A stretch of 32,000 nucleotides of DNA from Thermosulfurimonas dismutans (GCF_001652585.1 NZ_LWLG01000001.1:30001-62000); one strand, 5' to 3'; counted from the stretch's first letter, positions 10,716-27,880 are shown. Notes: generated from the sequence alone by a model not told the origin. Translations and numbers: made by a program.

Positions 10716-10802
10716 GCCGAGGTGGCGGAATTGGTAGACGCGCTGGATTCAGGATCCAGTGGGGATACCCCCGTGCGGGTTCGAGTCCCGCCCTCGGCAC
10801 CA
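10716..10802 (+). tRNA. tRNA-Leu (anticodon CAG), type II with long variable arm, CCA encoded
   Basis: Hand-folded. Acceptor GCCGAGG/CCTCGGC. Anticodon arm CTGGA-TTCAGGA-TCCAG gives anticodon CAG. Variable arm GGGG-ATA-CCCC. T-arm GCGGG-TTCGAGT-CCCGC. Discriminator A plus CCA. Confidence 0.92.
10775..10802 (+). repeat. attL: 28-bp direct repeat (T-arm to CCA of tRNA-Leu)
   Basis: GCGGGTTCGAGTCCCGCCCTCGGCACCA is identical to 27853-27880. Confidence 0.85.
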
Positions 10803-10848
10803 TCTTTCCCTTGATTATCAAGGCTTTCAGAAACCACTCATCCCTCCG

Positions 10849-10866
10849 GGGGACAGTCTGGGGACA
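10849..10866 (+). repeat. GGGGACA x2 at 11-bp phasing (GGGGACAGTCTGGGGACA), left island end
   Basis: A near-identical block GGGGACACTCTGGGGACA occurs at 27774-27791 near the right end. This is a candidate recombinase arm-type binding site, and that function is inferred. Confidence 0.55.
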
Positions 10867-10960
10867 AATGGCGGGAAACCTTTGATACGCAAGGGATAGA
10901 GACCTGAGACTCTTTCTCAATAAGAGGGGTTTTAGGAATTTGACTTCCGATTTTGGCTGA

Positions 10961-12172
10961 TTATTCCCGATTAGAGGAAGCTTTCTTTTCCCGTTTCTCG
11001 AGCCAGTCCCCAAGAGAAACTAGCTTGCGGGACCGGTCTTCGACTTCGGCCAGGGTTATGAGTTTCGGATTAAGGCGGGCATACTTCCGGGTGGTTCTCA
11101 CGTCCGAATGCCCCATGTAAGCCCCGATCTCCTCATAGGAAAGTCCCTGTTTGAGCAGCTGATAGGCGAAAGAGTGCCTCACGCCCTCATAAAGACTAAC
11201 TCCTTCAAGACCTATCTCCGCGCAAGCCTTCCTCCAGAGCTTTGAAAGCAGGGTCTCCCCGTAGTGGTCCGCCCTCGAATGCGAGAACACAAAAAGGGAC
11301 CTTTTGCGCCGGGCAAGCTCTCTCAGGATCTCCTCTATCCCGGAGTGCATAGGCAAAACCTTCCATTTTCCCTCTTTGGGAAGCTCCACGAGCTTCCGGT
11401 AGCTAAAGGTCCGTTTGATGAGTATCTCTTTGGAGGAAAAGTTAACGCAATCCCACATCAAGGCCCTTGCCTCACCGGGACGACAACCGTAGGTCATCAT
11501 GAACTGAAAGATGGGGCGGTGTTCTACCGGAATGCGCTTCAAGATCTCAAGCTGAACCTCAAGATCCAAGCCCGCCGGTATGCGTTCGGGGAGCTTTATC
11601 TCCGGAAACTGCGGCACCTTTTCCAAATCTTCCCGCCGGTGGGCGTAGTTCAGAAGCGCCTTTAACTCGGCCACGATGTTGTAAATCGTCTTGGGAGCTT
11701 TCCCTCTTTTCCGCAGATGATCCACGAATTCCTCGATGTGTTTCTTCCGAATGTCTCGAATGTCGTTTATCCCCAAAGACATGAAAAACCCCAAAACATG
11801 GGTCCTCAGGATTCTCTTGCGATCTTTCAAGGCACTGGGTTTAAGACCTTTTCTTTCGGAGTGCTCTATAAACCTTTCAATGTAGGTCGGGAGCAAAAAT
11901 TCCTTCTGGTCCCGAAGGACATACCTTGAGGGATCAAAGGTGCGGTTTTCTATCTCAAAGGCGATGACCTGCTGGAGCTGTTTGGCCTGCTCGAAGCTAC
12001 TCAAAGGGTTTCCCTGTTTGTCGGAATAGAGCCGGATGCGTCTTCCCTGCCAGGAAAGGTCTATGAAGTAGCGTCTCGGTGTGGTGAAGCACTTGGGGCA
12101 GATGAGACCCACCGGGGTTTCCTGAAAGTTCCTTTTGCACCGGGGGCACTTCTCTTTGGTACGAATGTGCAC
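10961..12172 (-). CDS. int: Tyrosine recombinase / integrase with N-terminal zinc ribbon
   Basis: This is the C-terminal part of track ORF 10961..12943. Catalytic residues: R in GCRPGEARAL, H-x-x-R in GVRHSFAYQ, and H/Y in GHSDVRTTRKYARL. The N-terminus has CPRC-x12-CPKC. Start chosen at GTG 12172, with GGAGG 6 nt upstream. The alternative ATG at 12289 has a poor SD. Codons upstream of these are low-complexity and antisense to the methyltransferase gene. Confidence 0.85.
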   Translation of the reverse strand: MHIRTKEKCPRCKRNFQETPVGLICPKCFTTPRRYFIDLSWQGRRIRLYSDKQGNPLSSFEQAKQLQQVIAFEIENRTFDPSRYVLRDQKEFLLPTYIERFIEHSERKGLKPSALKDRKRILRTHVLGFFMSLGINDIRDIRKKHIEEFVDHLRKRGKAPKTIYNIVAELKALLNYAHRREDLEKVPQFPEIKLPERIPAGLDLEVQLEILKRIPVEHRPIFQFMMTYGCRPGEARALMWDCVNFSSKEILIKRTFSYRKLVELPKEGKWKVLPMHSGIEEILRELARRKRSLFVFSHSRADHYGETLLSKLWRKACAEIGLEGVSLYEGVRHSFAYQLLKQGLSYEEIGAYMGHSDVRTTRKYARLNPKLITLAEVEDRSRKLVSLGDWLEKREKKASSNRE

Positions 12173-12481
12173 TCGGCCCCTCCGCAGCTCCCCGGACTCG
12201 AGGAACTTTTCCAGGATGATCAACCACGCGGCCCTTCTTCTGTCAAGAAGTTCCCCGCCCCCGATCAATCTCCGCCCCCAAATTTCCATTTCTTTCTTTT
12301 TTTGTGGCCATACGGCGTATGCTGGCTCTTTTTCAATTTTTTTGATCTTTCCTTTTTTCGGAGAAAAAACTTTAGGGGGAGGGGGAGATCTTCCTGGTCT
12401 GGAGGAACAGCCTAACCAAATTTTTTCTCGCCTCTTCTTTTCTTTAAAAGGACCAAAAGCACCTAAGCAGAGGTTCTTATC

Positions 12482-13576
12482 GTGAGAGGAGGCTTGAAGC
12501 CTTTTCTTAGGTGGGTGGGAGGCAAGAGGTGGCTTACCGCAAGGTATGGGGACATATTTCCCAGGGAGTTCAACCGCTACATCGAGCCCTTTCTCGGCTC
12601 CGGAGCGGTCTTCTTCTATCTTCTTCCCGAAAAGGCCATTCTCGGAGACATAAACGAAGATCTGATCCTTACCTATGAGGCGCTGCGGGAAGACTGGCGC
12701 CGTGTCTACGACCTTCTCAAGGTCCACCACGGAAGGCACTCGAGGGATTATTACATTCGGATTAGGAGAGAGCGGCCTGAAGGGCTCTTCGAACGGGCCG
12801 CATGGTTTCTTTACTTGAACAGTGCCTGTTTCAACGGGCTTTGTCGGTACAACCTGCGGGGCGAGTTCAACGCCCCCATCGGAAAGGAGATCAAACCTCT
12901 TCCGCCCCCGGAATTCTGGGAGGAGGTTTCCCGGGCCCTTCAAGCTGCGGATCTCCGCGTGAGCGATTTCGAGGCCTTGGTAGATCTAGCAGGTGAGGGT
13001 GACTTTCTCTTTATAGATCCTCCGTATGCGCTTCCCGAAAAAGGAGGGTTCAAGGACTATGTGCTCAAGGCCTTCGGCTGGGAGGATCAGGAGAGGCTCC
13101 TCAAGGCTCTATCGCGGGCGCTTGAGCGGGGAGCCGTGATCCTGGGAACGAATGTTTTTCACGAGGGGCTTGTTGAGATGTACCGGGAGGTTTTCGGGGA
13201 AAACCTGGCCCTAGTGGAGAGGGTAAGCTCTCTGGCTGCTAAAAGGGAAGGGCGAGGGAGGTATCGGGAGTTCATCTTCTGGGGGAACCTTGAGATCCCG
13301 GCTGAGCTGAGGCCCGGGGTACCTCTTGAGGATCTTCCTCGGAATTGCGTTTCGCTTTCGATCTCGGAGGGCGATTTTTCGAAGGACGGTCTTCAAAACA
13401 CTTTTTCTGGGGCAGGGATAGGTTGGATGGCGACGGAGGTTGCTGTCTGGTGGCGGCCGTATGTCTCCGAAGTACGCCACCCTGCCGAAGGGTTGGTAGC
13501 CGTAATCGAACCCGTTTTTAAAAAATGGCTTCGAGTGAGGGACGGTCCTTTCGTAGAGGATCAAGGCTTTACCTGA
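12482..13576 (+). CDS. Dam-family (D12 class) N6-adenine DNA methyltransferase with ~90-aa unassigned C-terminal extension
   Basis: KPFLRWVGGKRWL (SAM-binding N-terminal motif), EPFLGSGAVFF and the catalytic DPPY (FIDPPYAL) are present. The start is GTG, with AGAGG 8 nt upstream. No cognate endonuclease is adjacent. Confidence 0.82.
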   Translation: MRGGLKPFLRWVGGKRWLTARYGDIFPREFNRYIEPFLGSGAVFFYLLPEKAILGDINEDLILTYEALREDWRRVYDLLKVHHGRHSRDYYIRIRRERPEGLFERAAWFLYLNSACFNGLCRYNLRGEFNAPIGKEIKPLPPPEFWEEVSRALQAADLRVSDFEALVDLAGEGDFLFIDPPYALPEKGGFKDYVLKAFGWEDQERLLKALSRALERGAVILGTNVFHEGLVEMYREVFGENLALVERVSSLAAKREGRGRYREFIFWGNLEIPAELRPGVPLEDLPRNCVSLSISEGDFSKDGLQNTFSGAGIGWMATEVAVWWRPYVSEVRHPAEGLVAVIEPVFKKWLRVRDGPFVEDQGFT

Positions 13577-15646: not shown

Positions 15647-16234
15647 ATGTCCTCAGGGAAATTAGAACCGGATTTTAAAGGAAAAAATAGTGAAAAGAGA
15701 AGAAAAAAGCTAACCCAAAAAGAGCCGGATAAAAAAGAGTTAGACGACCTACTCTCCCGGAAAAGGGAGCTTGAGGAGAAGCTCCGGCGCATGCTAAATA
15801 TGGAAGGAGTCCTCAGGTATGGGCTTTGCGTGCTTACAGAGTTGAGGGGAGAGATCAATCGTCGGTATTTAGGAGAGTTCGAATCCAGCGTAAGCGACCT
15901 CTTCTCCCGCATTACCCACGGAAATTACACTGGCGTAAGATTCGAGACCGAAAGCCTCTTTTTCGACGGCGACACTTTTAAAACCAGATGGCAAGCCATC
16001 CGTAAGGATGGAAGATCTTTTCCCATTAACGAGCTTTCGGACGGGACTTCTTCTCAGCTCCTTCTCTCCGCCCGATTGGCCCTGATTCGCCTCTTTTTCG
16101 ACCGTAAGGCCTTTTTGCTGCTTGACGAACCCTTCGCCTATTTTGACCATGACCGCACCCAAAAGACCATGAACATATTGCATTCCCTTACCAAGGAGGG
16201 CTGGCAGGTAATCGTGATGAGTGCGAAGGGATAG
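15647..16234 (+). pseudogene. C-terminal fragment of an SMC/SbcC/YhaN-like ABC-type ATPase (no Walker A head half)
   Basis: It contains a coiled-coil remnant, the signature motif LSDGTSSQL, and Walker B/D-loop FLLLDEPFAYFD. No N-terminal P-loop domain is present. The frame is open only back to 15500 and shows no Walker A there. Full-length relatives are several-fold longer. Confidence 0.6.
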
Positions 16235-16253
16235 AAAAAGGAGCTCGGGCGTT

Positions 16254-16572
16254 ATGGGAACGAAAACTTTAGACGACATAAAACGCATTCTTCAAGAGCA
16301 CAAATCAATATTAGCTAAAGAATTTCGGGTTAAAGAATTTAATCTTTTTAGTTCTTATGTGTGGGGAGAGGAAATCGTGGATAAGTGATATTGATATTTT
16401 AGTGGAATTTGAAAGGCTAATCGGCTTAAAGATTGTTGGCCTCAAAGATTATTTAGAACGCATTTTAGGAGTAAAGGTTGATGTAGTTTCTAAAAAGGCT
16501 GTTATCAGGAAACCCAGGTTTTCCGCCTTCACATCTTATCTCACTTTGGCTTGTCAAGAAAATTTAAGTTAG
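16254..16572 (+). pseudogene. Frameshifted MNT-type nucleotidyltransferase (antitoxin of MNT-HEPN pair)
   Basis: Frame 1 from ATG 16254 reads MGTKTLDDIKRILQEHKSILAKEFRVKEFNLFSSYVWGEE and then stops at 16390-16392. The catalytic continuation SDIDILVEFERLIGL...LGVKVDVVSKKA is in another frame (track ORF 16357..16572). This implies a 1-nt indel at about 16375-16385. The 3' end also diverges from the usual family ending. Confidence 0.65.
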
Positions 16573-16714: not shown

Positions 16715-19393
16715 ATGGGACTAAACGAAGCCGATACCCGGGCTCGGCTAGTGGAACCGAAGCTAAAAGCTTCGGGTTGGACGGATCAAATTGTTACACG
16801 GGAATTCTATTATTCACGTGACCATCAATATACCCCTGGCAAAATCATTTTGGTAGGAGACCAGGTACGTCGCGGAAAGGGAAAACGGGTGGATTATCTC
16901 CTCCGTTACACTGACAGTTTCCCTATTGCGGTAGTGGAAGCCGAACCCGAGAATGAACCGCCGGAAAAGGGTCTCGAACAAGCAAAGGGATACGCGAAAG
17001 ATCTGGGTTTAGCCTTTGCATACGGCACAAACGGCCATCGCATTCTCGAGTACGACTTTTTCACTCATTCCACTCGCGAAATAGATCGTTTCCCTACTCC
17101 TCAAGAATTATGGGAAAGGTGGAAACAAAATACTGGCCTTGAAGTTCCTCAACCTGGGCGCGTTGCTGAGGCTCCGGCGGTTTACGGCTTTGGAGAGCAT
17201 ACCACCAATCCTCTACTTTTCCCTTACTGTCCCGAATCACTGTGCGGCAAGCGTCCCCATTACTTTCAAGAACGGGCTATACGAGAGGTTATTCTTCGTC
17301 TTATGCGTGGTCAAAAGCGCGTGCTTCTTACAATGGCAACTGGTACAGGAAAGACTTTTGTCGCCTTTCAAATCGCTTGGAAACTAATCAAATCCGGTTG
17401 GTTAAAACAGCGTCATCCTGACCGTCCAGCACGAATTCTTTTTTTGGCGGATCGGGTAGTCCTCCGGAATCAAGCTTATAACGCTTTCTCTCCTTTTGCC
17501 GATGGCACCAGCGATCCCCGATACTTAATCGAAGGGCATCCTCCCAACCTAAACCGCGACCTCTATTTCGGTATTTACCAGACCCTTTGGAGTCCAGACG
17601 AGGAAGGACGACGTCTTTTTGAAAAGTTCCCTCCAGACTTTTTTGATCTGGTTATCATTGACGAATGCCATCGCTCCGGTTGGGGTACCTGGCGCGAGAT
17701 CCTTGACCACTTTGGCCAGGCCATTCACTTGGGTATGACGGCCACGCCGAAACAGGACGATAATATAGACACCTATGCCTACTTCTGTGCCGAGGAGCAG
17801 GAGGTAGCCATAGATCCGGAACACCCGGAGAGAGGAAGGTGGCGCCCGCCGGCCTATCAATACAGTCTGGGACAAGGGATCGAGGACGGCTTCCTGGCCA
17901 CCTATAAAGTGCACCGAGTGCGTACCACGGTGGACAAAACCGGCCTTCGGTTAGAGGATGCTCTCGAACAAGGAGCCGAAGTTTTTATCCCCGAAGATGT
18001 GGAACCCCGCGAAATCTACACCACCCCGCAGTTTGAACGGGAAATCACTCTCCCGGATCGTACCCGGGCCATGGTACAACATCTGGCTAAACTTCTCCGG
18101 CGGTTCGGCATCTGGGACAAAACTATGGTCTTCTGCGTGGACATGGATCATGCTCGTCTTGTGGCCAGGCTTCTTCAGGAAGAATTTGGTCCGGAAACAG
18201 GACTAGATAACTATGCGGTTCCCATTATTTCGGAAGAAGGGGAAGAGGCCAGACGCTGGTTAGAGGACTTCGCTCAATCCGAGAAGAAAGCCCCGGTGGT
18301 AGCTACCACCGCCGAACTGCTTTCCACCGGTGTGGATGTGCCTTCATGCAAGAACATCGTTTTCATGAAAACTATCTCTTCGCCGGTGCTCTTTAAACAG
18401 ATCGTGGGCCGCGGCAGCCGCCTAGATCCTGCTACCGATAAATACTGGTTCCGTATCATTGACTTTACCGGCGCCACTCGGCTCTTCGACGAGTGGGATC
18501 GGCCGGCCGGGACGCCTCCGGAAGTTCCTCGAGGTCCCTTTACCGCAATCATCAGAGGAACAGTCTTTCATGCCCAAACTGGCGATCGCATCGTGGGTGC
18601 TTCGGTTAGTGTCCGTACCGGTCCCAATATGCAGCAGGGTCCCATCCGAACGGATGAAAATGGCGCCTTTGTCTTCGAAGGTCTTCCGGCAGGGACGGTT
18701 ACCTTGATCGTTAACGCTCCGGGATTTATACGACGGGAACTGCGCGTTGAGACCTTGGCCGATGAAATCCTTACCATTGAAGTACCCTTGAAACCCGAGC
18801 GGAAAGGAAGAGGAAAAATTCGGGTCGAGGGCCTGGAAGTAGACATCGCTGATGAGGCGATTTTTATCATCGAAGCCACGGGACAGCAGCTTTCTTTGCA
18901 GGAATATCGGAATTATACAGCTAGAAAGGTTTTGCAGGCGGCCCCCACACGCCAGACTTTGCGAGAAATTTGGATAAATCGCGAAAAGCGTCGAGCTTTC
19001 CTTGAAGATCTTCGTCGCTCAAGCATTTATCCTGAAGTCCTTGCAGAGGCGCTTGGGTTTTCTGAGGTTGATACTTATGATCTCTTAGCCCATATCGCTT
19101 TCGCTTCCCCTATTCGCACCCGGAGTGAACGTGCCACGGCCTTCTGCAATCGGGAACAGGCGTTCCTTAAGCGCTATGCCGAAAAGGCGCGGCAGGTCAT
19201 ACTGGAACTTTTGGAGAAATACCGCGTTGGAGGTATTGACCAGCTTGAGCCGGAAATCTTCAATGTTTCTCCCTTTCGGGAATGGGGCGGGGCCTTTCGA
19301 ATCAGCAAATGGTTTGGCGGCGTAGAAGGGCTGGGAGACACACTACAAGAGATGCGCGAACGTCTTTATCCTGAATCGGAGGTGAAGCCTTGA
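16715..19393 (+). CDS. hsdR: Type I restriction enzyme R subunit
   Basis: The N-terminal nuclease-type domain starts MGLNEADTRARLVEPKL. The SF2 helicase motifs are LLTMATGTGKT and IIDECHRS, followed by a helicase C domain. The C-terminus is EcoEI_R_C-like (SLQEYRNY...FNVSPF). An extra beta-sandwich-like segment lies at about 18547-18797. Confidence 0.93.
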   Translation: MGLNEADTRARLVEPKLKASGWTDQIVTREFYYSRDHQYTPGKIILVGDQVRRGKGKRVDYLLRYTDSFPIAVVEAEPENEPPEKGLEQAKGYAKDLGLAFAYGTNGHRILEYDFFTHSTREIDRFPTPQELWERWKQNTGLEVPQPGRVAEAPAVYGFGEHTTNPLLFPYCPESLCGKRPHYFQERAIREVILRLMRGQKRVLLTMATGTGKTFVAFQIAWKLIKSGWLKQRHPDRPARILFLADRVVLRNQAYNAFSPFADGTSDPRYLIEGHPPNLNRDLYFGIYQTLWSPDEEGRRLFEKFPPDFFDLVIIDECHRSGWGTWREILDHFGQAIHLGMTATPKQDDNIDTYAYFCAEEQEVAIDPEHPERGRWRPPAYQYSLGQGIEDGFLATYKVHRVRTTVDKTGLRLEDALEQGAEVFIPEDVEPREIYTTPQFEREITLPDRTRAMVQHLAKLLRRFGIWDKTMVFCVDMDHARLVARLLQEEFGPETGLDNYAVPIISEEGEEARRWLEDFAQSEKKAPVVATTAELLSTGVDVPSCKNIVFMKTISSPVLFKQIVGRGSRLDPATDKYWFRIIDFTGATRLFDEWDRPAGTPPEVPRGPFTAIIRGTVFHAQTGDRIVGASVSVRTGPNMQQGPIRTDENGAFVFEGLPAGTVTLIVNAPGFIRRELRVETLADEILTIEVPLKPERKGRGKIRVEGLEVDIADEAIFIIEATGQQLSLQEYRNYTARKVLQAAPTRQTLREIWINREKRRAFLEDLRRSSIYPEVLAEALGFSEVDTYDLLAHIAFASPIRTRSERATAFCNREQAFLKRYAEKARQVILELLEKYRVGGIDQLEPEIFNVSPFREWGGAFRISKWFGGVEGLGDTLQEMRERLYPESEVKP

Positions 19394-20891: not shown

Positions 20892-21131
20892 ATGAGACGT
20901 TTTAAATTTTTAGCCGTTATCTGGAAAGAGGAAGCGGGTTACGTCTCTTATTGTCCTGAATTAGAAGTTTCTTCCTGTGGCGATTCCCCGGAAGAAGCTC
21001 TGCATAATCTTAAGGAAGCAGTGGAGTTGTATTTAGAAAATGCTAAAGAGCTTGGGATGCTTGAAGATGTGGAAAGGGTAGCTCAAACATCAGAAAAATT
21101 TACTTCTTCTCTGGAAATTGAATTACAATGA
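20892..21131 (+). CDS. hicB: HicB-family antitoxin
   Basis: 79 aa. FLAVIWKEEAGYVSYCPELEVSSCGDSPEEALHNLKEAVELYLE is typical of the HicB/UPF0150 fold. SD GGGGGA. Its stop overlaps the hicA start (ATGA). Confidence 0.8.
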   Translation: MRRFKFLAVIWKEEAGYVSYCPELEVSSCGDSPEEALHNLKEAVELYLENAKELGMLEDVERVAQTSEKFTSSLEIELQ

Positions 21132-21364
21132 AGCTTCCTATTCTTTCTTCGTCCGAAGTCGAAAGAGTTCTGTGTCGGGCCGGCTTTGAACCTGCTCCCA
21201 AAAGAGGTAAGGGTAGTCACAAGGCTTTTATTAAACAGACAAAAGACAGAAAATTTTTAGTAATAGTTCCTCAAAAGAGAATTATTCCCAGGGGAACGCT
21301 TCTTGCAATTATTAAGCAAGCCGGTCTTACCAAAGAAGAATTTATGCGTCTTTTGAGAGAATAA
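21128..21364 (+). CDS. hicA: HicA mRNA interferase toxin
   Basis: 78 aa. SSSEVERVLCRAGFEPAPKRGKGSHKAFIKQ...VIVPQKRIIPRGTLLAIIKQAGLTKEEF is the YcfA/HicA double-stranded-RNA-binding-like fold with its conserved GSH. Confidence 0.85.
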   Translation: MKLPILSSSEVERVLCRAGFEPAPKRGKGSHKAFIKQTKDRKFLVIVPQKRIIPRGTLLAIIKQAGLTKEEFMRLLRE

Positions 21365-21378: not shown

Positions 21379-22224
21379 ATGAGATCTTTAGATTATAAAA
21401 CACTCGAAGCACTCGCTGAACTCATTTGCGGAGATAACGGTCCTTGGTATAGAAAAGGTTGGGAAATACCTATCTTTTTCAGGAATGCAGGCTTATCTTG
21501 TCCTGAACATGACGGTTCTACTCGAAAATGGTGGACATTAGCAAGACTTCAAGAATACAATCAAGATCCATCTAATATAGCTAAGATTATAAAACGCCTT
21601 GCTGATCCTCGCGAATATCAAGGAAATGCTGAGGTAGTCAATGAAGTAATAAGACATTTGAATAAACTACTGGCCGTTGAGGGACTAAAAGTAAAGTTGA
21701 AGGGAATTCAACCAGTAATAGAAGAAATAACGCCTACTGTGGTGAACAAGGATATCGAAACTAGAGAAGCTTTTCCGAAGCCAGATTTTGCAAAAATCAT
21801 TGAAGAACCAATTTTAATGAAAATTATAGAACAACGATGGGAAGAAGTTATTAAGTGCATAGATGGTGAAGCTTATTTAGCCGCTATTATTATGATGGGA
21901 AGTATTTTAGAAGGTGTGCTTTTAGCAATTATCCATAGGTTTCCAGAAAAAGCTAACCGGTCTCCGGCTGCTCCCAAAAATAGAGACGGCAAAGTAAAAA
22001 GATTCTGGGAATGGAATTTAAGCGAAATGATTGATGTGGCTCATCAAGTTGGATGGCTTCAAGGAGATGTTAAGAAATTCGCGCATATTCTCAGAGACTA
22101 TAGAAATTTAGTTCATCCTTGGCACCAAATGAATACAAAGGAACAACCAGACGAAGACACTTGTAAAATAGCGTGGCAGGTTGTTCAAGCAGCTATTAAT
22201 GATTTGATCAGATTAGTAAAATGA
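21379..22224 (+). CDS. Unknown 281-aa protein with C-terminal HEPN-like motif (ORF281)
   Basis: A long clean ORF in AT-rich DNA. Its stop overlaps the hsdS start (ATGA at 22221-22224). The C-terminal helical part ends in FAHILRDYRNLVHPWHQ (R-x6-H / RN-x2-H). The HEPN assignment is tentative. Confidence 0.7.
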   Translation: MRSLDYKTLEALAELICGDNGPWYRKGWEIPIFFRNAGLSCPEHDGSTRKWWTLARLQEYNQDPSNIAKIIKRLADPREYQGNAEVVNEVIRHLNKLLAVEGLKVKLKGIQPVIEEITPTVVNKDIETREAFPKPDFAKIIEEPILMKIIEQRWEEVIKCIDGEAYLAAIIMMGSILEGVLLAIIHRFPEKANRSPAAPKNRDGKVKRFWEWNLSEMIDVAHQVGWLQGDVKKFAHILRDYRNLVHPWHQMNTKEQPDEDTCKIAWQVVQAAINDLIRLVK

Positions 22225-23390
22225 TTAAAGGACCCTACAAGCTCCCCAAAGGCTGGCGCTGGGTGAGGTTGGGAGAGGTGTGTGAAATTTGGGACAAATA
22301 TAGAATTCCGGTTAAAAAGAAAGAACGTAAGCCGGGCAACATACCATATTGTGGTGCAAACGGTATTATTGATTACGTGGAAGGATGGACTCATAAAGGA
22401 GAATTTGTGTTATTAGCCGAAGACGGAGGTTTTTATAAAGCTGGAGAAAAAAGTGCCTACATAATGAGAGGACGATTTTGGGCAAATAATCATGTGCATA
22501 TTTTGAAAGGGAAAACTAGTATCTTGGAAAACTTATTTCTGATGCATTATTTAAATGCAATTGATTTAACGCCGTGGTTGACAGGAGCGACCAGGCCTAA
22601 ACTAAACCAAAATTCAATGAAAAAAATTCCAATCCCCCTCCCGCCCCTTGAGGAGCAGCGGCGGATCGTGGCACGGATTGAGGAGTTGATGGCGCGGGTG
22701 CGGGAGGCCCGCCGCCTGCGGGAGGAAGCCCTAAAGGACACCGACCGCCTCTGGCAATCCACCCTCGCCGAGGTCTTCCCCCGCCCCGGCCAGGACCTCC
22801 CTTCCGGCTGGCGCTGGGTGCGGTTGGGGGAGGTGTGCGAGACTACAAGCGGGGGTACTCCTAGCAGGAAAAAACGAGAATACTTTGGAGGAAATATTCC
22901 TTGGGTAAAATCAGGAGAACTAAATGATTCCATAATTTTTGATACGGAAGAAAAAATCACAGAATTAGGTCTTCGAAATTCAAATGCCAAATTGTTTCCA
23001 AAAGGAACTTTACTCATTGCAATGTATGGAGCTACGGTTGGAAAATTAGGCATTTTAGGATGTACTGCAGCAACAAATCAAGCAATTTGTGCCTTATTTC
23101 CTGATAAATCTATCTTAGATAAAATGTTTTTATTTTATTTTTTTCTATTCAAACGCAAAGAACTTGTAGCTCAAAGTTTTGGAGGAGCTCAACCAAATAT
23201 AAGTCAAACAGTAATTCGCAAAATCGAAATCCCCCTCCCCACCCTTGAAGAACAACGGCGCATTGTGGCCTACTTGGAAGCCGTCCAAGAAAAGATCAGA
23301 GCCTTTAAGGAAGTCCAAACCAAAACCGAGGCCGAACTCAAACGCTTAGAGCAATCAATTTTAGACAAAGCGTTTAGGGGTAAATTATAG
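22221..23390 (+). CDS. hsdS: Type I R-M specificity subunit (two TRDs + two conserved coiled-coil regions)
   Basis: The structure is duplicated. LPKGWRWVRLGEVCE (TRD1 start) matches LPSGWRWVRLGEVCE (TRD2 start). IPLPPLEEQRRIVARIEEL matches IPLPTLEEQRRIVAYLEAV. The TRD2 motif GGTPSR...YGATVGK is present. Confidence 0.9.
   Translation: MIKGPYKLPKGWRWVRLGEVCEIWDKYRIPVKKKERKPGNIPYCGANGIIDYVEGWTHKGEFVLLAEDGGFYKAGEKSAYIMRGRFWANNHVHILKGKTSILENLFLMHYLNAIDLTPWLTGATRPKLNQNSMKKIPIPLPPLEEQRRIVARIEELMARVREARRLREEALKDTDRLWQSTLAEVFPRPGQDLPSGWRWVRLGEVCETTSGGTPSRKKREYFGGNIPWVKSGELNDSIIFDTEEKITELGLRNSNAKLFPKGTLLIAMYGATVGKLGILGCTAATNQAICALFPDKSILDKMFLFYFFLFKRKELVAQSFGGAQPNISQTVIRKIEIPLPTLEEQRRIVAYLEAVQEKIRAFKEVQTKTEAELKRLEQSILDKAFRGKL
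22251..22285 (+). repeat. Intragenic direct repeat copy 1 in hsdS
   Basis: GGCTGGCGCTGGGTGAGGTTGGGAGAGGTGTGTGA matches copy 2 at 32 of 35 positions. Confidence 0.9.
22806..22840 (+). repeat. Intragenic direct repeat copy 2 in hsdS
   Basis: GGCTGGCGCTGGGTGCGGTTGGGGGAGGTGTGCGA. A second, more diverged repeat pair starts at 22632 and 23229 (ATCCCCCTCC...). Confidence 0.9.
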
Positions 23391-24052
23391 TGGAAAATAT
23401 TTTACTAAAATTATCCGAGCATCAAAGAATTTTATACAAAGCGTTATATGAAAAAAATGAAAAGTTGGCTAGCATATATCTTGGAGCATTACTTGTACTT
23501 CGACAAAACAATCCTGATAGAATAGCCTTAGCTGCTCATGGTTTAAGAGAGCTTATGGAAAAAATCCCTCAGTATCTTGATCTGCCTGTAAGGGTTAAGC
23601 CAAAAAACCTTCGTAGTGAGGTGCAAAATTTAAGTGAAGAATGGAAAAAAACATGCGAGCGCTCCGAGTGCTTTGAAGAGGGGAGTTGGCATGGAGAAAT
23701 TGACGGTTCTCTTCGCAAGCTACTTCAAAAATTAGGAAAATTTTTTGATTGGTTTTCTGAGCATTATCCCACGAGAAGCAAACAAACTAAGAGTATGTTA
23801 TCTTATCTGGATCCTTTTGTTTCAAAATTGCCAGAGCCTATAATGGAATTACGAGCGAAAGAATGGAAGGAAATACATGATTATTTTAATGATGTAAGCC
23901 ATCACAGGTTTGACTCCGATTTTGATACTTTTTCTAAATGGTTGGAAGCTCTAGAATACTTTTTGTTAGATCGCTTTGTCCCGAAAACTTTTGATGACCA
24001 TAAGATAATTGATGACATAATTAGAGAAGGTGAAGAAAATGCCAAGGCGTGA
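23390..24052 (+). CDS. Unknown 220-aa helical protein (ORF220)
   Basis: The GTG start overlaps the hsdS stop by 1 nt (TAGTG), with AGGGG 9 nt upstream. This is a clean ORF in AT-rich DNA. I recognise no family. It contains AAHGLRELMEK and IHDYFNDVSHH. Confidence 0.65.
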   Translation: MENILLKLSEHQRILYKALYEKNEKLASIYLGALLVLRQNNPDRIALAAHGLRELMEKIPQYLDLPVRVKPKNLRSEVQNLSEEWKKTCERSECFEEGSWHGEIDGSLRKLLQKLGKFFDWFSEHYPTRSKQTKSMLSYLDPFVSKLPEPIMELRAKEWKEIHDYFNDVSHHRFDSDFDTFSKWLEALEYFLLDRFVPKTFDDHKIIDDIIREGEENAKA

Positions 24053-26855
24053 AACAGTGAAAAAAGCATTAAAGGCAATAAAAAGAGGAGCAGATTATAA
24101 GTATTTTTTCGATCATCTCAAATCACCTGAGTGGATAAAACCCCTTTGGAAGGAAGGTTTTTTCCGGGATCCACCAAAACCAATAAAAGAAGGAGAATAC
24201 ATTTCTTTTCCATCTTGGCCAGAGTCTATTTATCTTGCCCGAATGGCACCACTTAATCCAAAACTGGTACTAGAAGTTATATTACAAATTCCAGATGTGG
24301 GAAATGCTCGTATTTATCAAGATTTGATTGATGCAGCACTTAAAATGCCTCCAGAACTTGCTGCATGTCTTGTGGAAAAAACTAAAAAGTGGGCAAAGTC
24401 ACTATATTTATCGGTGCCAGAAAAATTAGGCCAACTTATCTCCCATCTTGCAGAAGGAGGAAAAACAGAAGAAGCTTTGGAGATTGCTGAAGTTTTGTTA
24501 GACATCATACCAGATTCCAGTTCTATAAAGGATATATTTCCGCCAGAGCCGCGGCCTCGTTTTGATATATGGTCTTATGAACAAATTTTAAAAGAAAATT
24601 ATCCCCAATTGATTAAAGAATCAGGGCTACCTGCTTTCAAATTGCTTTGTGATTTATTAGAAAAAGCTGTACACCTTTCGCAAAGAGAGAAATATGAAAA
24701 GCCTGTAGACCTTTCTTATATCTGGCGACCAGCTATTGAGGATCATCTGCAAAATACAAGGGAAGACGTCAAAAATGTTCTAGTTAACGCTGTTAGAGAT
24801 GCTGCAGATCTTTTGATAAAAGAAGGATTACTATCAATAGAAGAAACAATCCATCACCTCGAAAAATATTCCTACCCAATCTTTAAGCGCATTATTCTTT
24901 ACTTACTATGGCGTTTTCCAGAAAAAGCCGGCAGATTCATTCCTCAATATCTAATAAACAATACCCTCTTTAATGATCCTCATTTTAGACATGAATATAA
25001 TATTTTGTTGCGAAAGTACTTTAAGAACTTAGATAATAGAGAAAAAAAGCAAATTATTAGATGGCTAGAACAAGGACCTGATCCTGAACTTTTAAAAGAT
25101 AAAAGCCCTGGAGAAAAAGAACAACTAAGGAAGCTTTGGTTACGAAACCAACTTGCCCGATTTAACTTGGAAGATTTGCCCCGGGAATGGCAGAAAGTTT
25201 ACAAAGAACTGGTTGAAAAATTTGGTGAACCGGAGCACCCAGACTTTGTATTTACTACCAGTACATGGATCGGTCCAACGAGTCCCTTAACAAAAGAGGC
25301 TATTCTTCAAAAAAGCATAGATGAATTGATTGAATTTCTTAAATCCTGGTCTCCTCCAGAAATTCCTTTTGGAGAACCTTCTCCAGAAGGATTGGGTCGG
25401 GAATTGGCAAGTGCAGTGGCTGAACAACCAGAGAGATTTGCCATCGAGGCTAAAAAATTTAAGGGAACGGGTCCCACCTATGTTAGGCATTTAATCTCAG
25501 GGTTTACAGAAGCCTTAAAAGAGGGAAAGTCTTTTCCGTGGGAACAGATTTTAAACCTCTGTGAATGGGCAATTAGTCAACCAAGAGAGATTTCAAAAAA
25601 AAGAAAAATTCCTTTTGGCTTTGATCCTGACTGGGGTTGGACTCGAAAAGAAATAGCTTCTCTATTAGAAACAGGTCTTGAAAAGTATGCCTTCCCGTTC
25701 AAATTAAGGGAACGTATATGGAAAATTCTCGAACCTCTCACCGAAGATCCGGAGCCGACAAGGGAGGAAGAAGAAAAAAGATTTGATTTGCATGAGTTGG
25801 AATGGCCGACCCTGGCAATAAACAGTGTCCGAGGTCGAGCATTCCACGCGATAATAAAATATGCCATCTGGGTTCGTCAGAATTTAAAGAAACAAAAAGT
25901 GAAGTACCAAGGCTTTTCTTCTATTCCAGAGGTTAAAGAAGTTTTAGAAAAGCACCTGGACCCTTCTCATGATCCATCGCTTGCTATCCGCTCTATTTAC
26001 GGTCAATGGCTTCCCTGGCTTATACACTTAGACTCCGATTGGATTAAAGAAAACCTTTCAAAAATTTTTCCCGAAGATAATCCCAAGTTACGGAAGGTTG
26101 CCTGGGAAAGTTATCTCGTATTCAATAGAGCTTCCAAATATCTCGTATTCAATAAAGCTTCCAAAGAAGTTTATGAACTCTTAAAAGATCAATATGCTCA
26201 AGCCGTAAATACACTCTCTCTTGATCTCAAGGATAAAGATTTGAAAGAAACTCAAAAAAGCTTAGCTAATCACCTAATGATTTTTTATGCTTTGGGTTCT
26301 ATAGAGTGGGATGATCCTATTTTCCAAAGTTTTTGGGAAAATGCTGGCCCCCTCAGAAAGGAGGCTTTGGAGTTTATTGGAAGACTTCTTTATCAAAGTA
26401 AAATTTCTCAAGAATTTATAAAACGTTTTCAAAAGTTGTGGGAAAGCTATTGGTATAAGTTTCAAGATTCTTTCCATAAATCTCCTGATAAATACAAACC
26501 AGAACTTGCCACTTTTGGCTGGTGGTTCATATCAGAAAAGTTTGACGTTAGTTGGGCGATTAATCGGCTCCTTGAGGTTCTCCAGCTAACCCGCAAAATA
26601 GAGCCTGCACGCATGGTGCTACAACATCTTACAAAAATTTCCGAAAAATATCTCCGAGAAGCCATTAAGAGCTTAAAGCTAATTGCGGAGGGAGACCAGG
26701 AAGGATGGGTAATTTATACGGGGCGTAAATATATTCGCGAGATTCTTGAAAAGGCTATGCGCGATTCCAAAGCTAGAAGCGATGCTGAGCCGTTTGTACA
26801 TTATTTGGGAAGCCGTGGATTTTTTGAGTTCCGAGACTTATTAAGGAAGAACTAA
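24039..26855 (+). CDS. Unknown ~938-aa all-helical repeat protein (ORF941)
   Basis: The ATG at 24039 has GAAGGTGA 5 nt upstream. The frame is open from GTG 24030. It overlaps the ORF220 end. A 2.8-kb ORF in AT-rich DNA is strong coding evidence. I find no P-loop, nuclease, protease or other catalytic motif. Confidence 0.8.
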   Translation: MPRRETVKKALKAIKRGADYKYFFDHLKSPEWIKPLWKEGFFRDPPKPIKEGEYISFPSWPESIYLARMAPLNPKLVLEVILQIPDVGNARIYQDLIDAALKMPPELAACLVEKTKKWAKSLYLSVPEKLGQLISHLAEGGKTEEALEIAEVLLDIIPDSSSIKDIFPPEPRPRFDIWSYEQILKENYPQLIKESGLPAFKLLCDLLEKAVHLSQREKYEKPVDLSYIWRPAIEDHLQNTREDVKNVLVNAVRDAADLLIKEGLLSIEETIHHLEKYSYPIFKRIILYLLWRFPEKAGRFIPQYLINNTLFNDPHFRHEYNILLRKYFKNLDNREKKQIIRWLEQGPDPELLKDKSPGEKEQLRKLWLRNQLARFNLEDLPREWQKVYKELVEKFGEPEHPDFVFTTSTWIGPTSPLTKEAILQKSIDELIEFLKSWSPPEIPFGEPSPEGLGRELASAVAEQPERFAIEAKKFKGTGPTYVRHLISGFTEALKEGKSFPWEQILNLCEWAISQPREISKKRKIPFGFDPDWGWTRKEIASLLETGLEKYAFPFKLRERIWKILEPLTEDPEPTREEEEKRFDLHELEWPTLAINSVRGRAFHAIIKYAIWVRQNLKKQKVKYQGFSSIPEVKEVLEKHLDPSHDPSLAIRSIYGQWLPWLIHLDSDWIKENLSKIFPEDNPKLRKVAWESYLVFNRASKYLVFNKASKEVYELLKDQYAQAVNTLSLDLKDKDLKETQKSLANHLMIFYALGSIEWDDPIFQSFWENAGPLRKEALEFIGRLLYQSKISQEFIKRFQKLWESYWYKFQDSFHKSPDKYKPELATFGWWFISEKFDVSWAINRLLEVLQLTRKIEPARMVLQHLTKISEKYLREAIKSLKLIAEGDQEGWVIYTGRKYIREILEKAMRDSKARSDAEPFVHYLGSRGFFEFRDLLRKN
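26112..26165 (+). repeat. In-frame 27-bp tandem duplication inside ORF941
   Basis: TATCTCGTATTCAATAGAGCTTCCAAA (26112-26138) is followed directly by TATCTCGTATTCAATAAAGCTTCCAAA (26139-26165). One mismatch. The encoded peptide is YLVFNRASK-YLVFNKASK. Confidence 0.95.
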
Positions 26856-26873
26856 CTATTTTCTTAGTTCTTC
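26846..26873 (+). terminator. Hairpin at the end of the R-M/passenger operon
   Basis: GAAGAACTAA-ctattttc-TTAGTTCTTC is a perfect 10-bp stem whose left arm contains the ORF941 stop codon. It is followed by GAGCTTTTCG. The stem is AT-rich, so terminator strength is uncertain. Confidence 0.45.
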
Positions 26874-26986
26874 GAGCTTTTCGTTAGAATTTGCTTAATG
26901 AAACTCTAATAAGGGATGTGGTTGCTCTTTTTGCATGGTGCATTATCTTTAAATCAGTAAAGAAAATTCTTTACTGGAGTTTTTCT

Positions 26987-27235: not shown

Positions 27236-27648
27236 TTAGAGCGGTATTCGACACCAATGTGTATCTTTCAGCCATCCTTTTTGGTGGCGTATGCGCCGAG
27301 CTAAGAGATTTTGCTAGGAAAGGAAAAATTGAAGTATTCGTTTGCGAGGCTATTCTTGCCGAGGTGGCCGGGGTCCTCAGGAAGAAATTCGGATGGAGTC
27401 ATTATCAGATCAGCCTTCTTCTCGCGGAAATCAGAAGTTTCACCACGGTAATCTTTCCTCTTAAGAGAGTGGAAGTCATCAAAGAAGATCCCGCGGACAA
27501 TAGAGTGCTTGAGTGTGCGCTTGAGGCCGGAGCTGATTATCTGGTTTCAGGAGACAAAAAGCATCTTTTGCCTCTCAAGGAATTTCAGGGCGTACGGATT
27601 CTGAGCCCTAGAGAATTCCTAAAGTTATTGATCCAACAAGAACTATAG
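27232..27648 (+). CDS. PIN-domain toxin (VapC-like, PIN_3 type)
   Basis: The TTG start overlaps the antitoxin stop. MIRAVFDTNVYLSAILF (first acidic residue), then ...EDPADNRVLECALEAGADYLVSGDKKHLL are typical PIN acidic-residue blocks. Confidence 0.85.
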   Translation: MIRAVFDTNVYLSAILFGGVCAELRDFARKGKIEVFVCEAILAEVAGVLRKKFGWSHYQISLLLAEIRSFTTVIFPLKRVEVIKEDPADNRVLECALEAGADYLVSGDKKHLLPLKEFQGVRILSPREFLKLLIQQEL

Positions 27649-27773
27649 GATGGTCTTTGTCTGACCTACTCCCCGCTTTTCTAACCACTTGACAACTACT
27701 ACCGTCGCTTTCTCGGGCTTTCTGCCACCGCCTCCTTCCCACTACTTCACCATCTTCCGCTTCTGGACATCCT

Positions 27774-27791
27774 GGGGACACTCTGGGGACA
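27774..27791 (+). repeat. GGGGACA x2 at 11-bp phasing (GGGGACACTCTGGGGACA), right island end
   Basis: Counterpart of 10849-10866. It is followed by AGGAACTTGACAAAGCTCCCGATTTC (27795-27820), which resembles AGGAATTTGACTTCCGATTTT at 10934-10954. Confidence 0.55.
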
Positions 27792-27800
27792 GTCAGGAAC

Positions 27801-27829
27801 TTGACAAAGCTCCCGATTTCGCCTACTTT
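27801..27829 (+). promoter_or_regulatory. Candidate outward-facing sigma70-type promoter at the island's right end
   Basis: TTGACA (27801-27806), a 17-nt spacer, then TACTTT (27824-27829). It points toward the tRNA fragment and the downstream helicase-like gene. This is motif-level evidence only. Confidence 0.3.
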
Positions 27830-27852
27830 CTCATCAAAAGAGGGCGGTTAGC

Positions 27853-27880
27853 GCGGGTTCGAGTCCCGCCCTCGGCACCA
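27853..27880 (+). repeat. attR: 28-bp direct repeat, orphan copy of the tRNA-Leu 3' end
   Basis: Identical to 10775-10802. No acceptor 5' strand, D-arm or anticodon arm lies upstream, so this is not a second tRNA gene. Confidence 0.85.

What the first reader, a model, noticed from the sequence alone, without database searches (positions are those of the whole stretch)
10775..27880. 17.1-kb genomic island integrated into tRNA-Leu(CAG), bounded by an exact 28-bp direct repeat
GCGGGTTCGAGTCCCGCCCTCGGCACCA occurs at 10775-10802, where it is the T-arm through CCA of an intact 87-nt tRNA-Leu. It occurs again, identical, at 27853-27880, where no 5' tRNA half precedes it. A tyrosine recombinase gene ends ~160 bp inside the left repeat. 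Everything between the repeats is accessory: an orphan MTase, type I R-M, three TA modules and pseudogenes. Everything outside is housekeeping: hisB/hisA on the left, helicase-like and purH-like genes on the right. This is the classic attL/attR signature of a tRNA-targeting integrative element.
Basis: partly seen in the sequence, partly recalled or inferred. Interest (0 to 1): 0.7.

Follow-up and report, generated by a model that had tools for sequence, protein, structure and literature searches.

The report
Defence island inserted in tRNA-Leu gene
A 17-kb block of foreign, mostly anti-phage defence genes was inserted by a site-specific integrase into the end of a leucine tRNA gene of the hydrothermal-vent bacterium Thermosulfurimonas dismutans; this is a well-documented example of an ordinary, well-known kind of mobile island.

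Summary
The 28-mer occurs exactly twice. One copy is the 3' end of an intact tRNA-Leu(CAG) (10716-10802). The other is a stand-alone copy at 27853-27880. An intact tyrosine integrase gene ends 158 bp inside the left copy.

The predicted empty site exists. In two related genomes (L026 and L027; flanking helicase 84% and 75% identical) the intact tRNA-Leu(CAG) is followed after 23-24 bp by the helicase start codon. L027 is collinear with the window on both flanks and jumps from 10802 to 27853.

Integrases 85-86% identical sit in 5.3-kb and 7.3-kb elements that carry Rep/relaxase or polB/relaxase genes. These are bounded by exact 30-bp and 35-bp repeats of tRNA-Leu(CAA) and tRNA-Leu(GAG) 3' ends. 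All share an 18-bp motif, GGGGACAnTCTGGGGACA, on both arms.

The window's element has no replication, relaxase or phage genes. Its cargo is a Dam-family methylase, an AAA ATPase, an EcoAI-type type I R-M system, HicAB, an RHH-PIN pair, two decayed genes, and a Dsr1-like sensor paired with a small helical protein in place of SIR2. Excision was not shown.

Verdict: a new member of a known kind, of modest interest.

The parts
10716..10802 (+). Intact tRNA-Leu(CAG), the integration target. Its 3' 28 nt are the attL core.
   Evidence: ARAGORN; Rfam RF00005, 61 bits
10775..10802 (+). Left copy of the exact 28-bp direct repeat (attL core; T-arm, acceptor 3' strand and CCA).
10803..10960 (+). P' arm, the element DNA between the core and the integrase stop codon. 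It contains the palindrome CCTTGATTATCAAGG (10809-10823). It is about 88-90% identical to the same arm in L010 and L011.
   Evidence: alignment A2; per-segment identity
10849..10866 (+). Putative arm-type integrase-binding motif GGGGACAGTCTGGGGACA, 46 bp inside attL.
   Evidence: Only two matches in the window, 0.03 expected. The same motif occurs on both arms of the L011 and L013 elements.
10961..12289 (-). Tyrosine integrase, 435-442 aa. The start is ATG 12289 or TTG 12268; GTG 12172 is also possible. It has an N-terminal CxxC...CxxC zinc ribbon, a SAM-like domain and a catalytic domain with R270, K305, R371, H394 and Y403.
   Evidence: Pfam; start codons; homologues of 98%, 86% and 85% identity; alignment A4
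12482..13576 (+). Dam-family (D12) N6-adenine DNA methyltransferase. It belongs to the Int-MTase-AAA module that is also seen in L009 and L010.
   Evidence: Pfam 7e-37; TIGR00571, 192 bits
14121..15368 (+). AAA+ ATPase of unknown role, with weak Lon-AAA, RFC and Orc1/Cdc6-like matches.
15647..16234 (+). C-terminal fragment of a Rad50/SbcC/mad3-like ABC ATPase (pseudogene remnant; the N-terminal half is missing).
   Evidence: Matches only profile positions 680-851 of 878 for Rad50 and 177-321 of 374 for mad3
16221..16572 (+). Frameshifted nucleotidyltransferase (MNT-type antitoxin) pseudogene. It consists of two overlapping ORFs in different frames and has no HEPN partner.
   Evidence: Pfam NTP_transf_2 on 16357-16572; ORF 16221-16388 (its assignment as the N-terminal piece is my reading of the sequence; Pfam found nothing)
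16715..19393 (+). hsdR, EcoAI-family type I restriction subunit with an inserted carboxypeptidase-regulatory-like domain.
   Evidence: NCBIfam NF046051, 687 bits against a cut-off of 550; Pfam
19390..20877 (+). hsdM, type I methylase subunit.
   Evidence: Pfam N6_Mtase 1e-62 and HsdM_N; PADLOC MTase_I 5e-151
20892..21364 (+). hicB-hicA toxin-antitoxin pair. The low-GC block (39.8%) starts here.
   Evidence: Pfam HicA 7e-14; HicB-like 2.7e-4, below the curated cut-off; GC
21379..22224 (+). 281-aa protein of unknown function, lying between hicA and hsdS.
   Evidence: No family hit in Pfam, NCBIfam, PADLOC or PHROGs
22221..23390 (+). hsdS, type I specificity subunit with two target-recognition domains.
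   Evidence: Pfam Methylase_S 1e-62, two stretches
23390..24052 (+). 220-aa all-alpha protein (TDIS_0057), a distant relative of the pP_pnuc_1 predicted nuclease. It is the conserved partner of the next gene.
24030..26855 (+). 941-aa Dsr1-like sensor protein without a SIR2 domain.
   Evidence: PADLOC PDLC04166 1e-64, aligned to profile positions 306-1160 of 1227; NCBIfam Dsr1 only 45 bits
26891..27648 (+). Toxin-antitoxin pair: ribbon-helix-helix antitoxin and PIN_3 toxin.
   Evidence: Pfam RHH_1 1e-6 and PIN_3 2e-20; TIGR00305
27649..27852 (+). P arm, the right end of the element. It includes a TTGACA hexamer at 27802-27807 and GGGCGGTTAGC next to the core. It is conserved in L013, L011 and the L001 remnant.
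   Evidence: alignment A3
27774..27791 (+). Second copy of the arm-type motif, GGGGACACTCTGGGGACA, 61 bp inside attR.
27853..27880 (+). Right copy of the exact 28-bp repeat (attR core). No 5' tRNA half precedes it.
27904..29199 (+). Host DEAD-box helicase gene. In empty-site relatives it lies 23-24 bp after tRNA-Leu(CAG).

Best explanation
Window 10803-27880 is a 17.08-kb integrative genomic island of Thermosulfurimonas dismutans. It entered by site-specific recombination between an element-borne attP and the 3' end of the chromosomal tRNA-Leu(CAG) gene (attB).

The recombination was catalysed by the island's own tyrosine integrase (10961-12289, minus strand). Because attP carries a copy of the last 28 nt of the tRNA, integration leaves the tRNA intact at attL and leaves a stand-alone 28-bp copy at attR. 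Strand exchange therefore took place somewhere within those 28 bp, most likely around the symmetric T-stem/loop (inferred).

The 18-bp motif GGGGACAnTCTGGGGACA lies 46 bp and 61 bp inside the two cores. It is probably the arm-type binding site for the integrase's N-terminal domain (inferred).

The integrase belongs to a family that also serves small plasmid-like, relaxase-bearing elements inserted in other tRNA-Leu isoacceptors. This copy has no replication, transfer or phage genes. Instead it carries a mosaic of defence and addiction genes: a Dam-like methylase, an AAA ATPase, an EcoAI-type type I R-M system, HicAB, RHH-PIN, and a Dsr1-like sensor with a small partner. It therefore acts as a defence island.

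Shown here: the insertion, its exact borders, the empty site in relatives, the family relationship and the conserved att arms. Inferred: the crossover position, the arm-site function, and whether the island can still excise.
For: - Exact 28-bp repeat, found only twice in the window, with one copy being the tRNA 3' end.
- The integrase is intact. The catalytic residues R270, K305, R371, H394 and Y403 are invariant across 13 family members. A metagenomic copy is 98% identical.
- Empty sites. In L026 and L027, tRNA-Leu(CAG) is followed after 23-24 bp by the helicase ATG. L027 is collinear with window 190-10802 and then with 27853 onwards. More distant relatives (L002, L003, L016, L017) also have tRNA-Leu(CAG) directly upstream of the helicase.
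- Sibling elements. The L011 element is 5.3 kb (Rep_1, MobC, relaxase, Int) between exact 30-bp repeats of the tRNA-Leu(CAA) 3' end. The L013 element is 7.3 kb (polB-like, relaxase, MobC, Int) between exact 35-bp repeats of the tRNA-Leu(GAG) 3' end.
- Both att arms and the 18-bp motif are conserved across these elements.
- The 98%-identical integrase in L010 lies next to a tRNA-Leu with a different variable arm but the same 3' 30 nt. This indicates movement between sites or hosts.
- The right 6.8 kb has 39.8% GC against about 51% in the flanks. The published genome GC is 50.12% (PMC9676032).
Against: - No excision product, circular form or attP junction was observed. The attP pattern is absent from viral contigs.
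- No excisionase-like small ORF was seen by eye among the intergenic ORFs; they were not scanned against any family library.
- There are no replication or relaxase genes or remnants, and there are two decayed genes. The island may therefore be stranded.
- The left 10 kb has host-like GC (51.1%).
- No empty site was found within T. dismutans itself. The nearest empty-site genome has a helicase only 84% identical.
- The rest of the genome could not be searched for further copies of the 28-mer.
Confidence: 0.88

Rival explanations
1. The island is a fixed, no longer mobile remnant. It integrated as described, then lost its replication and transfer module and any excision factor. It is now only a chromosomal defence locus with a vestigial integrase.
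For: - No Rep, relaxase or polB remnants.
- No Xis-like ORF was evident by eye among the intergenic ORFs; they were not scanned against any family library.
- Two pseudogenes.
- Host-like GC in the left half.
- A relative (L001) carries a decayed right-end remnant at the same site, which shows that such elements do become stranded.
Against: - The repeats are 28/28 identical, whereas the L001 remnant has 5 mismatches.
- The integrase ORF is full length with all catalytic residues, and is 98% identical to a copy at another site.
- Both arm motifs are intact.
Confidence: 0.4
2. The 17 kb is a composite made in two or more steps. A small Int-MTase-AAA element came first. Separately acquired defence cassettes were added later, in particular the low-GC block at 20.9-27.6 kb. 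Tandem integration followed by loss of an internal att site is one possible route.
For: - GC drops from 51.1% to 39.8% exactly at the end of hsdM.
- L009 and L010 share only 10770-15268 with the window, and identity falls with distance from int: 98%, then 92%, then 87%.
- L013 shows a tandem arrangement: its attR core is followed by a second, truncated P' arm and an IS3 transposase.
Against: - There is no internal copy of the core, even allowing 3 mismatches.
- There is no second integrase or transposase inside the island.
- hsdR, hsdM and hsdS straddle the GC boundary as one operon.
- This reading is compatible with the main explanation rather than opposed to it.
Confidence: 0.5
3. The element is a degraded prophage or phage satellite rather than a plasmid-derived island.
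For: - Distant members of the integrase family (29-37% identity) lie on contigs classed as viral in IMG/VR.
- The integrase matches PHROG integrase families.
Against: - No capsid, tail, terminase, portal or lysis gene was found by Pfam or PHROGs.
- The closest integrases (85-86% identity) sit in elements with Rep/relaxase or polB/relaxase genes, not phage genes.
Confidence: 0.05
4. The repeat is a chance match, or an ordinary dispersed or partial tRNA duplication unrelated to integration.
For: None beyond the fact that tRNA 3' ends are similar between isoacceptors.
Against: - No matches in 100 shuffles.
- Empty sites in relatives coincide to the base with the repeat borders.
- An integrase lies next to the repeat and the arms are conserved.
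Confidence: 0.01

Closest known systems
tRNA-targeting integrative elements and genomic islands with tyrosine integrases (for example phage P4 and the pathogenicity islands at the E. coli leuX tRNA-Leu gene; recalled from general knowledge)
   Same: - Integration into the 3' end of a tRNA gene, here also a tRNA-Leu.
- attP carries the tRNA 3' end, so the gene is restored.
- Direct repeats at both ends.
- The integrase gene lies next to the tRNA-proximal end and points towards it.
- Accessory cargo, and an empty site in relatives.
   Different: - The integrase is not of the P4 type. It has an N-terminal CxxC...CxxC zinc ribbon and lacks the PF13356/PF22022 arm-binding domains. These domains appear only in the weakest, E>1e-8 hits.
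- It is at most 28% identical to any integrase in cultured phages or plasmids.
- The host is a thermophilic member of the Thermodesulfobacteriota.
Integrative mobilizable elements / integrated small plasmids (L011 and L013 type: Rep_1 or polB-like, MobC, relaxase and integrase)
   Same: - Integrase of the same family (85-86% identical).
- Same att architecture and arm motif.
- Same class of target (tRNA-Leu 3' end).
   Different: - The window's element has no relaxase, MobC, Rep or polB gene or remnant.
- It is 2-3 times larger and filled with defence genes.
Defence islands carried on integrative elements (the concept established for P4-like satellites, ICEs and IMEs; general knowledge)
   Same: - R-M, toxin-antitoxin and abortive-infection-type genes are clustered between an integrase and an att site.
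- Mosaic composition and decayed genes.
   Different: No hotspot organisation or helper phage is evident, and no anti-phage activity has been tested.
Dsr1 (defence-associated sirtuin 1) and the Avs7/Dsr1 sensor family (PMC12803255)
   Same: - The 941-aa protein aligns with the non-SIR2 part of the Dsr1 profile (positions 306-1160 of 1227, E 1e-64).
- The preprint reports that this sensor recognises phage major capsid protein and occurs with varied effectors.
   Different: - There is no SIR2 domain.
- The effector position is taken by a separate, overlapping 220-aa all-alpha gene. In some genomes this is fused to the N-terminus instead.
- It scores 45 bits against an NCBIfam Dsr1 cut-off of 1400.

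Membership tests
tRNA-integrated genomic island / integrative element (tyrosine-recombinase type) | Bounded by direct repeats, one of which is the 3' end of an intact tRNA gene | tested here: met
   Exact 28 bp at 10775-10802 (within the tRNA-Leu CAG) and 27853-27880
tRNA-integrated genomic island / integrative element (tyrosine-recombinase type) | Encodes a tyrosine integrase with the catalytic residues, next to one att site | tested here: met
   Pfam Phage_integrase 6e-20. R270, K305, R371, H394 and Y403 are invariant in A4. The stop codon is 158 bp from attL.
tRNA-integrated genomic island / integrative element (tyrosine-recombinase type) | Related genomes have an unoccupied site with a seamless tRNA-to-flank junction | tested here: met
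   L026 and L027; also L002, L003, L016 and L017
tRNA-integrated genomic island / integrative element (tyrosine-recombinase type) | Excision to a circular form with attP, restoring attB | not testable with these tools
   No read data are available. The attP pattern is absent from viral contigs.
tRNA-integrated genomic island / integrative element (tyrosine-recombinase type) | Composition or phylogeny differs from the host | tested here: inconclusive
   The right 6.8 kb has 39.8% GC against about 51% in the flanks, but the left 10 kb has 51.1%.
Integrative mobilizable element (IME) | Relaxase and/or oriT allowing mobilisation | tested here: not met
   tblastn with the sibling elements' relaxase, MobC, Rep and polB proteins gave no hit below E = 0.17. 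Pfam found no relaxase domain. oriT was not tested.
Integrative conjugative element (ICE) | Type IV secretion / conjugation module | tested here: not met
   No such domains in any island ORF
Prophage | Virion structural, packaging or lysis genes | tested here: not met
   PHROGs and Pfam found only the integrase, methylase, ATPase and repressor-like RHH
Type I restriction-modification system (EcoAI family) | HsdR, HsdM and HsdS all present as intact ORFs | tested here: met
   HsdR matches NF046051 at 687 bits (cut-off 550). HsdM N6_Mtase 1e-62. HsdS Methylase_S 1e-62 with two TRDs. Three other genes separate hsdM from hsdS.
Dsr1 (defence-associated sirtuin 1) | N-terminal SIR2 NADase domain | tested here: not met
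   The match starts at profile position 306. There is no SIR2 hit in Pfam, and the 220-aa upstream protein has no PADLOC hit.
Dsr1 (defence-associated sirtuin 1) | Large C-terminal repeat sensor region homologous to Dsr1 | tested here: met
   PDLC04166 1.1e-64 over residues 7-873. The same holds for partner genes in L030 and L033 and for the fused forms.

The most novel reading that the evidence does not exclude
Two readings go beyond 'one more tRNA island', and the evidence does not exclude either.

(1) This zinc-ribbon integrase, together with its conserved att arms, may be a portable integration module in thermophilic Thermodesulfobacteriota. It would be shuffled between plasmid-like Rep/relaxase backbones and pure defence cargo. 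It would be able to use several tRNA-Leu isoacceptors (CAG, GAG, CAA), because each element carries the matching tRNA 3' end.

(2) The overlapping 220-aa and 941-aa gene pair may be an uncharacterised anti-phage system. In it, a Dsr1/Avs7-type capsid sensor would work with a small all-alpha, pP_pnuc_1-like partner (a predicted nuclease) instead of a SIR2 NADase. This pair is conserved in unrelated genomes, sometimes as a fusion, and lies in defence-island surroundings.
Probability: 0.4. Interest if true: 0.45.

Novelty: new member of a known kind. Interest (0 to 1): 0.3.

Why it matters
This is a fully delimited example of horizontal gene transfer in Thermosulfurimonas dismutans, a little-studied deep-sea thermophile. 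The published genome analysis does not mention islands or integrases (PMC4911364). The result gives exact attL, attR and attB sequences and candidate arm sites for an integrase family with no characterised member. That could be useful as a site-specific integration tool for thermophilic Thermodesulfobacteriota. It shows one integrase family serving both plasmid-like elements and a defence island. It also points to a widespread two-gene relative of Dsr1 that lacks the sirtuin effector. None of this changes how tRNA-targeting islands are understood.

Tried and rejected
- Exact-protein look-ups of the window's helicase and hisB found nothing on record. A look-up of the second T. dismutans integrase paralogue (P0022) also failed, so a second element in the same genome could not be examined.
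- The metagenome scan with the helicase gave nothing closer than 55% identity. The closer relatives came from the protein search instead.
- Thermosulfurimonas sp. F29 (L029) has the helicase but no tRNA upstream and a different left flank, so it is uninformative.
- A search for an attP-type junction in viral contigs gave 0 hits.
- Integrase searches against cultured phages and plasmids gave only hits of 28% identity or less.
- The consensus promoter scan found no sigma-70-like site at either att region. My idea that the conserved TTGACA at 27802-27807 is an outward promoter that restores helicase expression therefore remains unsupported.
- No excisionase-like ORF stood out by eye among the intergenic ORFs of 35 aa or more; they were not scanned against any family library.
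- The 281-aa ORF at 21379-22224 has no significant hit in any library, even at E up to 10.
- The prophage, ICE and IME readings of the window's element were considered and rejected for lack of their defining genes.

Full report
**Observation**

The 28-mer GCGGGTTCGAGTCCCGCCCTCGGCACCA occurs exactly twice in the window, at 10775-10802 and 27853-27880. There are no further matches with up to three mismatches and none in 100 shuffles. The identity ends sharply on both sides.

The left copy is the 3' end of an 87-nt tRNA-Leu(CAG) at 10716-10802 (ARAGORN; Rfam tRNA 61 bits). No tRNA is found at the right copy.

A long minus-strand ORF ends at 10961, 158 bp inside the left repeat. It carries SAM-like and Phage_integrase domains. 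The flanks are housekeeping genes: hisA, a 215-aa ORF and hisB on the left; a DEAD-box helicase and an AICARFT/IMPCHase-like gene on the right.

**Source organism**

The helicase is 100% identical to a protein of Thermosulfurimonas dismutans on a 406,894-bp NCBI contig (P0079). The 220-aa ORF matches locus tag TDIS_0057. The published genome analysis does not mention islands, integrases or restriction systems (PMC4911364). The genome GC content is 50.12% (table in PMC9676032).

**Empty site**

- L026 is a metagenomic contig whose helicase is 84% identical. It has an intact tRNA-Leu(CAG) at 187-273, and the helicase ATG follows 23 bp later. The bases after CCA (ggccttaacggtcggagaaatccATGG) are collinear with window 27881 onwards (ggtcttatcggtcggagagattcATGG).
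- L027 comes from assembly GCA_054044485.1 and its helicase is 75% identical. It keeps gene order on both sides: GGDEF regulator, RNase II, hisA, a 213-aa gene, hisB, tRNA-Leu(CAG), helicase, purH-like, a 161-aa gene and a 210-aa gene.
- By blastn, L027 matches window 190-10802 and then continues at 27853-29098. The 17 kb is missing precisely between the repeat copies.
- More distant Thermodesulfobacteriota (L002, L003, L016, L017; helicase about 55% identical) also place tRNA-Leu(CAG) about 30 bp upstream of the helicase.

**The integrase and its family**

The likely start codon is ATG 12289 or TTG 12268, giving 442 or 435 aa. Homologues are 415-436 aa long.

In an alignment of 13 family members the catalytic residues are invariant: R270, K305, R371, H394 and Y403. 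Most of an N-terminal CxxC...CxxC motif is also conserved, followed by a conserved beta-rich segment (A4). The histidine that usually lies three residues before the second arginine is not conserved in this family.

The nearest integrases in cultured phages and plasmids are at most 28% identical. Distant members (29-37% identity) occur on contigs classed as viral.

**Sibling elements**

- P0002 (86% identical) lies in L011 and L012, inside a 5.3-kb element that encodes Rep_1, MobC, a relaxase and the integrase. The element is bounded by an exact 30-bp repeat of the 3' end of tRNA-Leu(CAA).
- P0003 (85% identical) lies in L013-L015, inside a 7.3-kb element that encodes a polB-like protein, a relaxase, MobC and the integrase. 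It is bounded by an exact 35-bp repeat of the 3' end of tRNA-Leu(GAG).
- In both elements the tRNA lies about 160-180 bp beyond the integrase stop codon, as in the window.
- P0001 (98% identical) lies in L009 and L010 with the same Int-methylase-AAA module. Nucleotide identity is about 90% over window 10770-15268 and falls with distance from int: 98%, then 92%, then 87%.
- L010 ends in a partial tRNA. Its 3' 30 nt equal the window's, but its variable arm differs (GGGCTTCGGCCC against GGGGATACCCCC). The remaining part of its anticodon loop reads TGAGGGG, which fits a GAG anticodon (the anticodon assignment is my inference).
- The family therefore targets tRNA-Leu 3' ends in general, and each element carries the matching core.

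**att architecture**

The P' arm (from the core to the integrase stop) is highly conserved between the window, L010 and L011. It begins with the palindrome CCTTGATTATCAAGG (A2).

The P arm is conserved between the window, L013, L011 and a remnant in L001 (A3).

The 18-bp motif GGGGACAnTCTGGGGACA occurs only twice in the window, at 10849-10866 and 27774-27791, against 0.03 matches expected by chance. It is found on both arms of the L011 and L013 elements.

I interpret it as the arm-type integrase site. I place the crossover within the 28-bp identity, probably around the symmetric T-stem/loop. Both points are inferences.

**Cargo**

- A Dam-family D12 methylase.
- An AAA+ ATPase.
- The C-terminal fragment of a Rad50/SbcC/mad3-like ATPase.
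- A frameshifted MNT nucleotidyltransferase without a HEPN partner.
- An EcoAI-family type I system (hsdR, hsdM, hsdS). HicB, HicA and an unknown 281-aa gene lie between hsdM and hsdS.
- A 220-aa plus 941-aa gene pair (described below).
- An RHH-PIN pair.

No replication, relaxase, conjugation or phage structural gene, or remnant of one, is present.

GC content is 51.1% in 10803-20877 and 39.8% in 20878-27648, against 51.1% and 50.8% in the flanks. The island is therefore a mosaic and was probably assembled in more than one step.

**Status of the element**

The identical repeats, the intact integrase and the intact arm motifs argue that it could still excise. Several points argue that it may be stranded: there is no recognisable excisionase, there are no transfer functions, some genes are decayed, and no attP junction was found. 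This cannot be settled with these tools.

That such elements do decay in place is shown by L001, a Thermosulfurimonas sp. MAG whose helicase is 73% identical. About 120 bp of the P arm and a degenerate core (gcgggggtgagtcacgccctcggcacca) sit directly upstream of its helicase, with a tmRNA gene further upstream instead of tRNA-Leu.

L013 shows tandem use of the site. Its attR core is followed by a second, truncated P' arm and an IS3 transposase.

**The Dsr1-like pair (side finding)**

- The 941-aa protein matches the PADLOC Dsr1 model PDLC04166 (E 1e-64), but only over profile positions 306-1160 of 1227. That is the part outside the SIR2 domain. It scores 45 bits against the NCBIfam Dsr1 cut-off of 1400.
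- The overlapping upstream 220-aa ORF belongs to a large family: 947 representatives at 50% clustering. Most members are free-standing proteins of 215-245 aa. A few are fused to the N-terminus of 1144-1184-aa proteins, and some follow a DUF4062 domain.
- PADLOC confirms that the fused proteins consist of this domain plus the Dsr1-like region.
- In three unrelated genomes the small gene overlaps a 957-958-aa gene by 8-14 bp; two of these large genes (L030, L033) were checked with PADLOC and are Dsr1-like. The neighbours are BrxC/PglY-like, SduA, methylase-helicase and toxin-antitoxin genes.
- The AF2 model is confident (pLDDT 86) and all-alpha, but has no significant match in the PDB.
- Invariant residues are R53, E54, P148, H171, H172, L192 and P198.
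- The window protein gives a sub-threshold Pfam hit to PF18165 (pP_pnuc_1, a predicted pPIWI-associated nuclease). Two homologues carry precomputed PF18165 hits.
- A 2026 preprint reports that the Dsr1 sensor is homologous to the Avs7 sensor, recognises phage major capsid protein, and occurs with diverse effectors (PMC12803255).
- The pair is therefore best seen as an uncharacterised effector variant of a known sensor family.

**Verdict**

It is a textbook type of element (a new member of a known kind) in an under-studied thermophile. It has good comparative support and some modestly interesting cargo. I score interest at 0.3.

Noticed in passing
window 23390-26855: An overlapping gene pair. 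A 220-aa all-alpha protein (TDIS_0057, annotated shorter in NCBI) is followed by a 941-aa Dsr1-like sensor that lacks SIR2. The pair is conserved in unrelated genomes in defence-island surroundings and is sometimes fused. It is not in PADLOC as a system. It is a candidate uncharacterised effector variant of the Dsr1/Avs7 sensor family.
   Followed up: partly
window 26112-26165: A perfect-register tandem duplication of 27 bp (96% identical) inside the Dsr1-like ORF. It encodes YLVFNRASK followed by YLVFNKASK, a recent in-frame 9-aa duplication.
   Followed up: no
window 18551-18790 (HsdR residues 613-692): The EcoAI-family HsdR carries an inserted carboxypeptidase-regulatory-like beta-sandwich domain (Pfam CarboxypepD_reg 2e-13) between the helicase core and the EcoEI_R_C domain. 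The NCBIfam match is split around it.
   Followed up: no
window 20892-22224: Three genes interrupt the type I R-M operon between hsdM and hsdS: hicB, hicA and a 281-aa ORF with no hit in any library. The GC drop from about 51% to about 40% starts exactly here.
   Followed up: partly
L001 1641-2455: In a Thermosulfurimonas sp. MAG the helicase is preceded by a decayed attR: a P-arm homologue plus a core with 5 mismatches. Upstream lies a tmRNA gene instead of tRNA-Leu, with a short P'-arm-like palindrome (cccttgatagacaaggctttccag) about 85 bp after the tmRNA. This could reflect rearrangement between elements at tmRNA and tRNA-Leu, or a chimeric contig. It is unexplained.
   Followed up: partly
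L013 3470-4194: The attR core of the 7.3-kb polB/relaxase element is followed by a second, truncated P' arm and then an IS3-family transposase. This indicates tandem integration at the same tRNA-Leu(GAG), followed by decay.
   Followed up: partly
L011 5483-5559 and 184-5411: Next to the 5.3-kb Rep/relaxase element lies a tRNA-Ile(TAT) gene and a block of toxin-antitoxin genes (RelB/ParE, HicB-like, RHH). This may be another accreted island.
   Followed up: no
window 27802-27807 (and the homologous positions in L001 and L013): A perfect TTGACA hexamer in the P arm points outward towards the helicase. In empty-site genomes the helicase sits 23 bp behind the tRNA. The element may therefore supply a replacement promoter, but the consensus scan found no acceptable -10 box.
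   Followed up: partly
L027 11504-12565: The empty-site relative has an extra multihaem-cytochrome-like gene (Paired_CXXCH_1, weak hit) between the helicase and the purH-like gene. The window lacks it.
   Followed up: no
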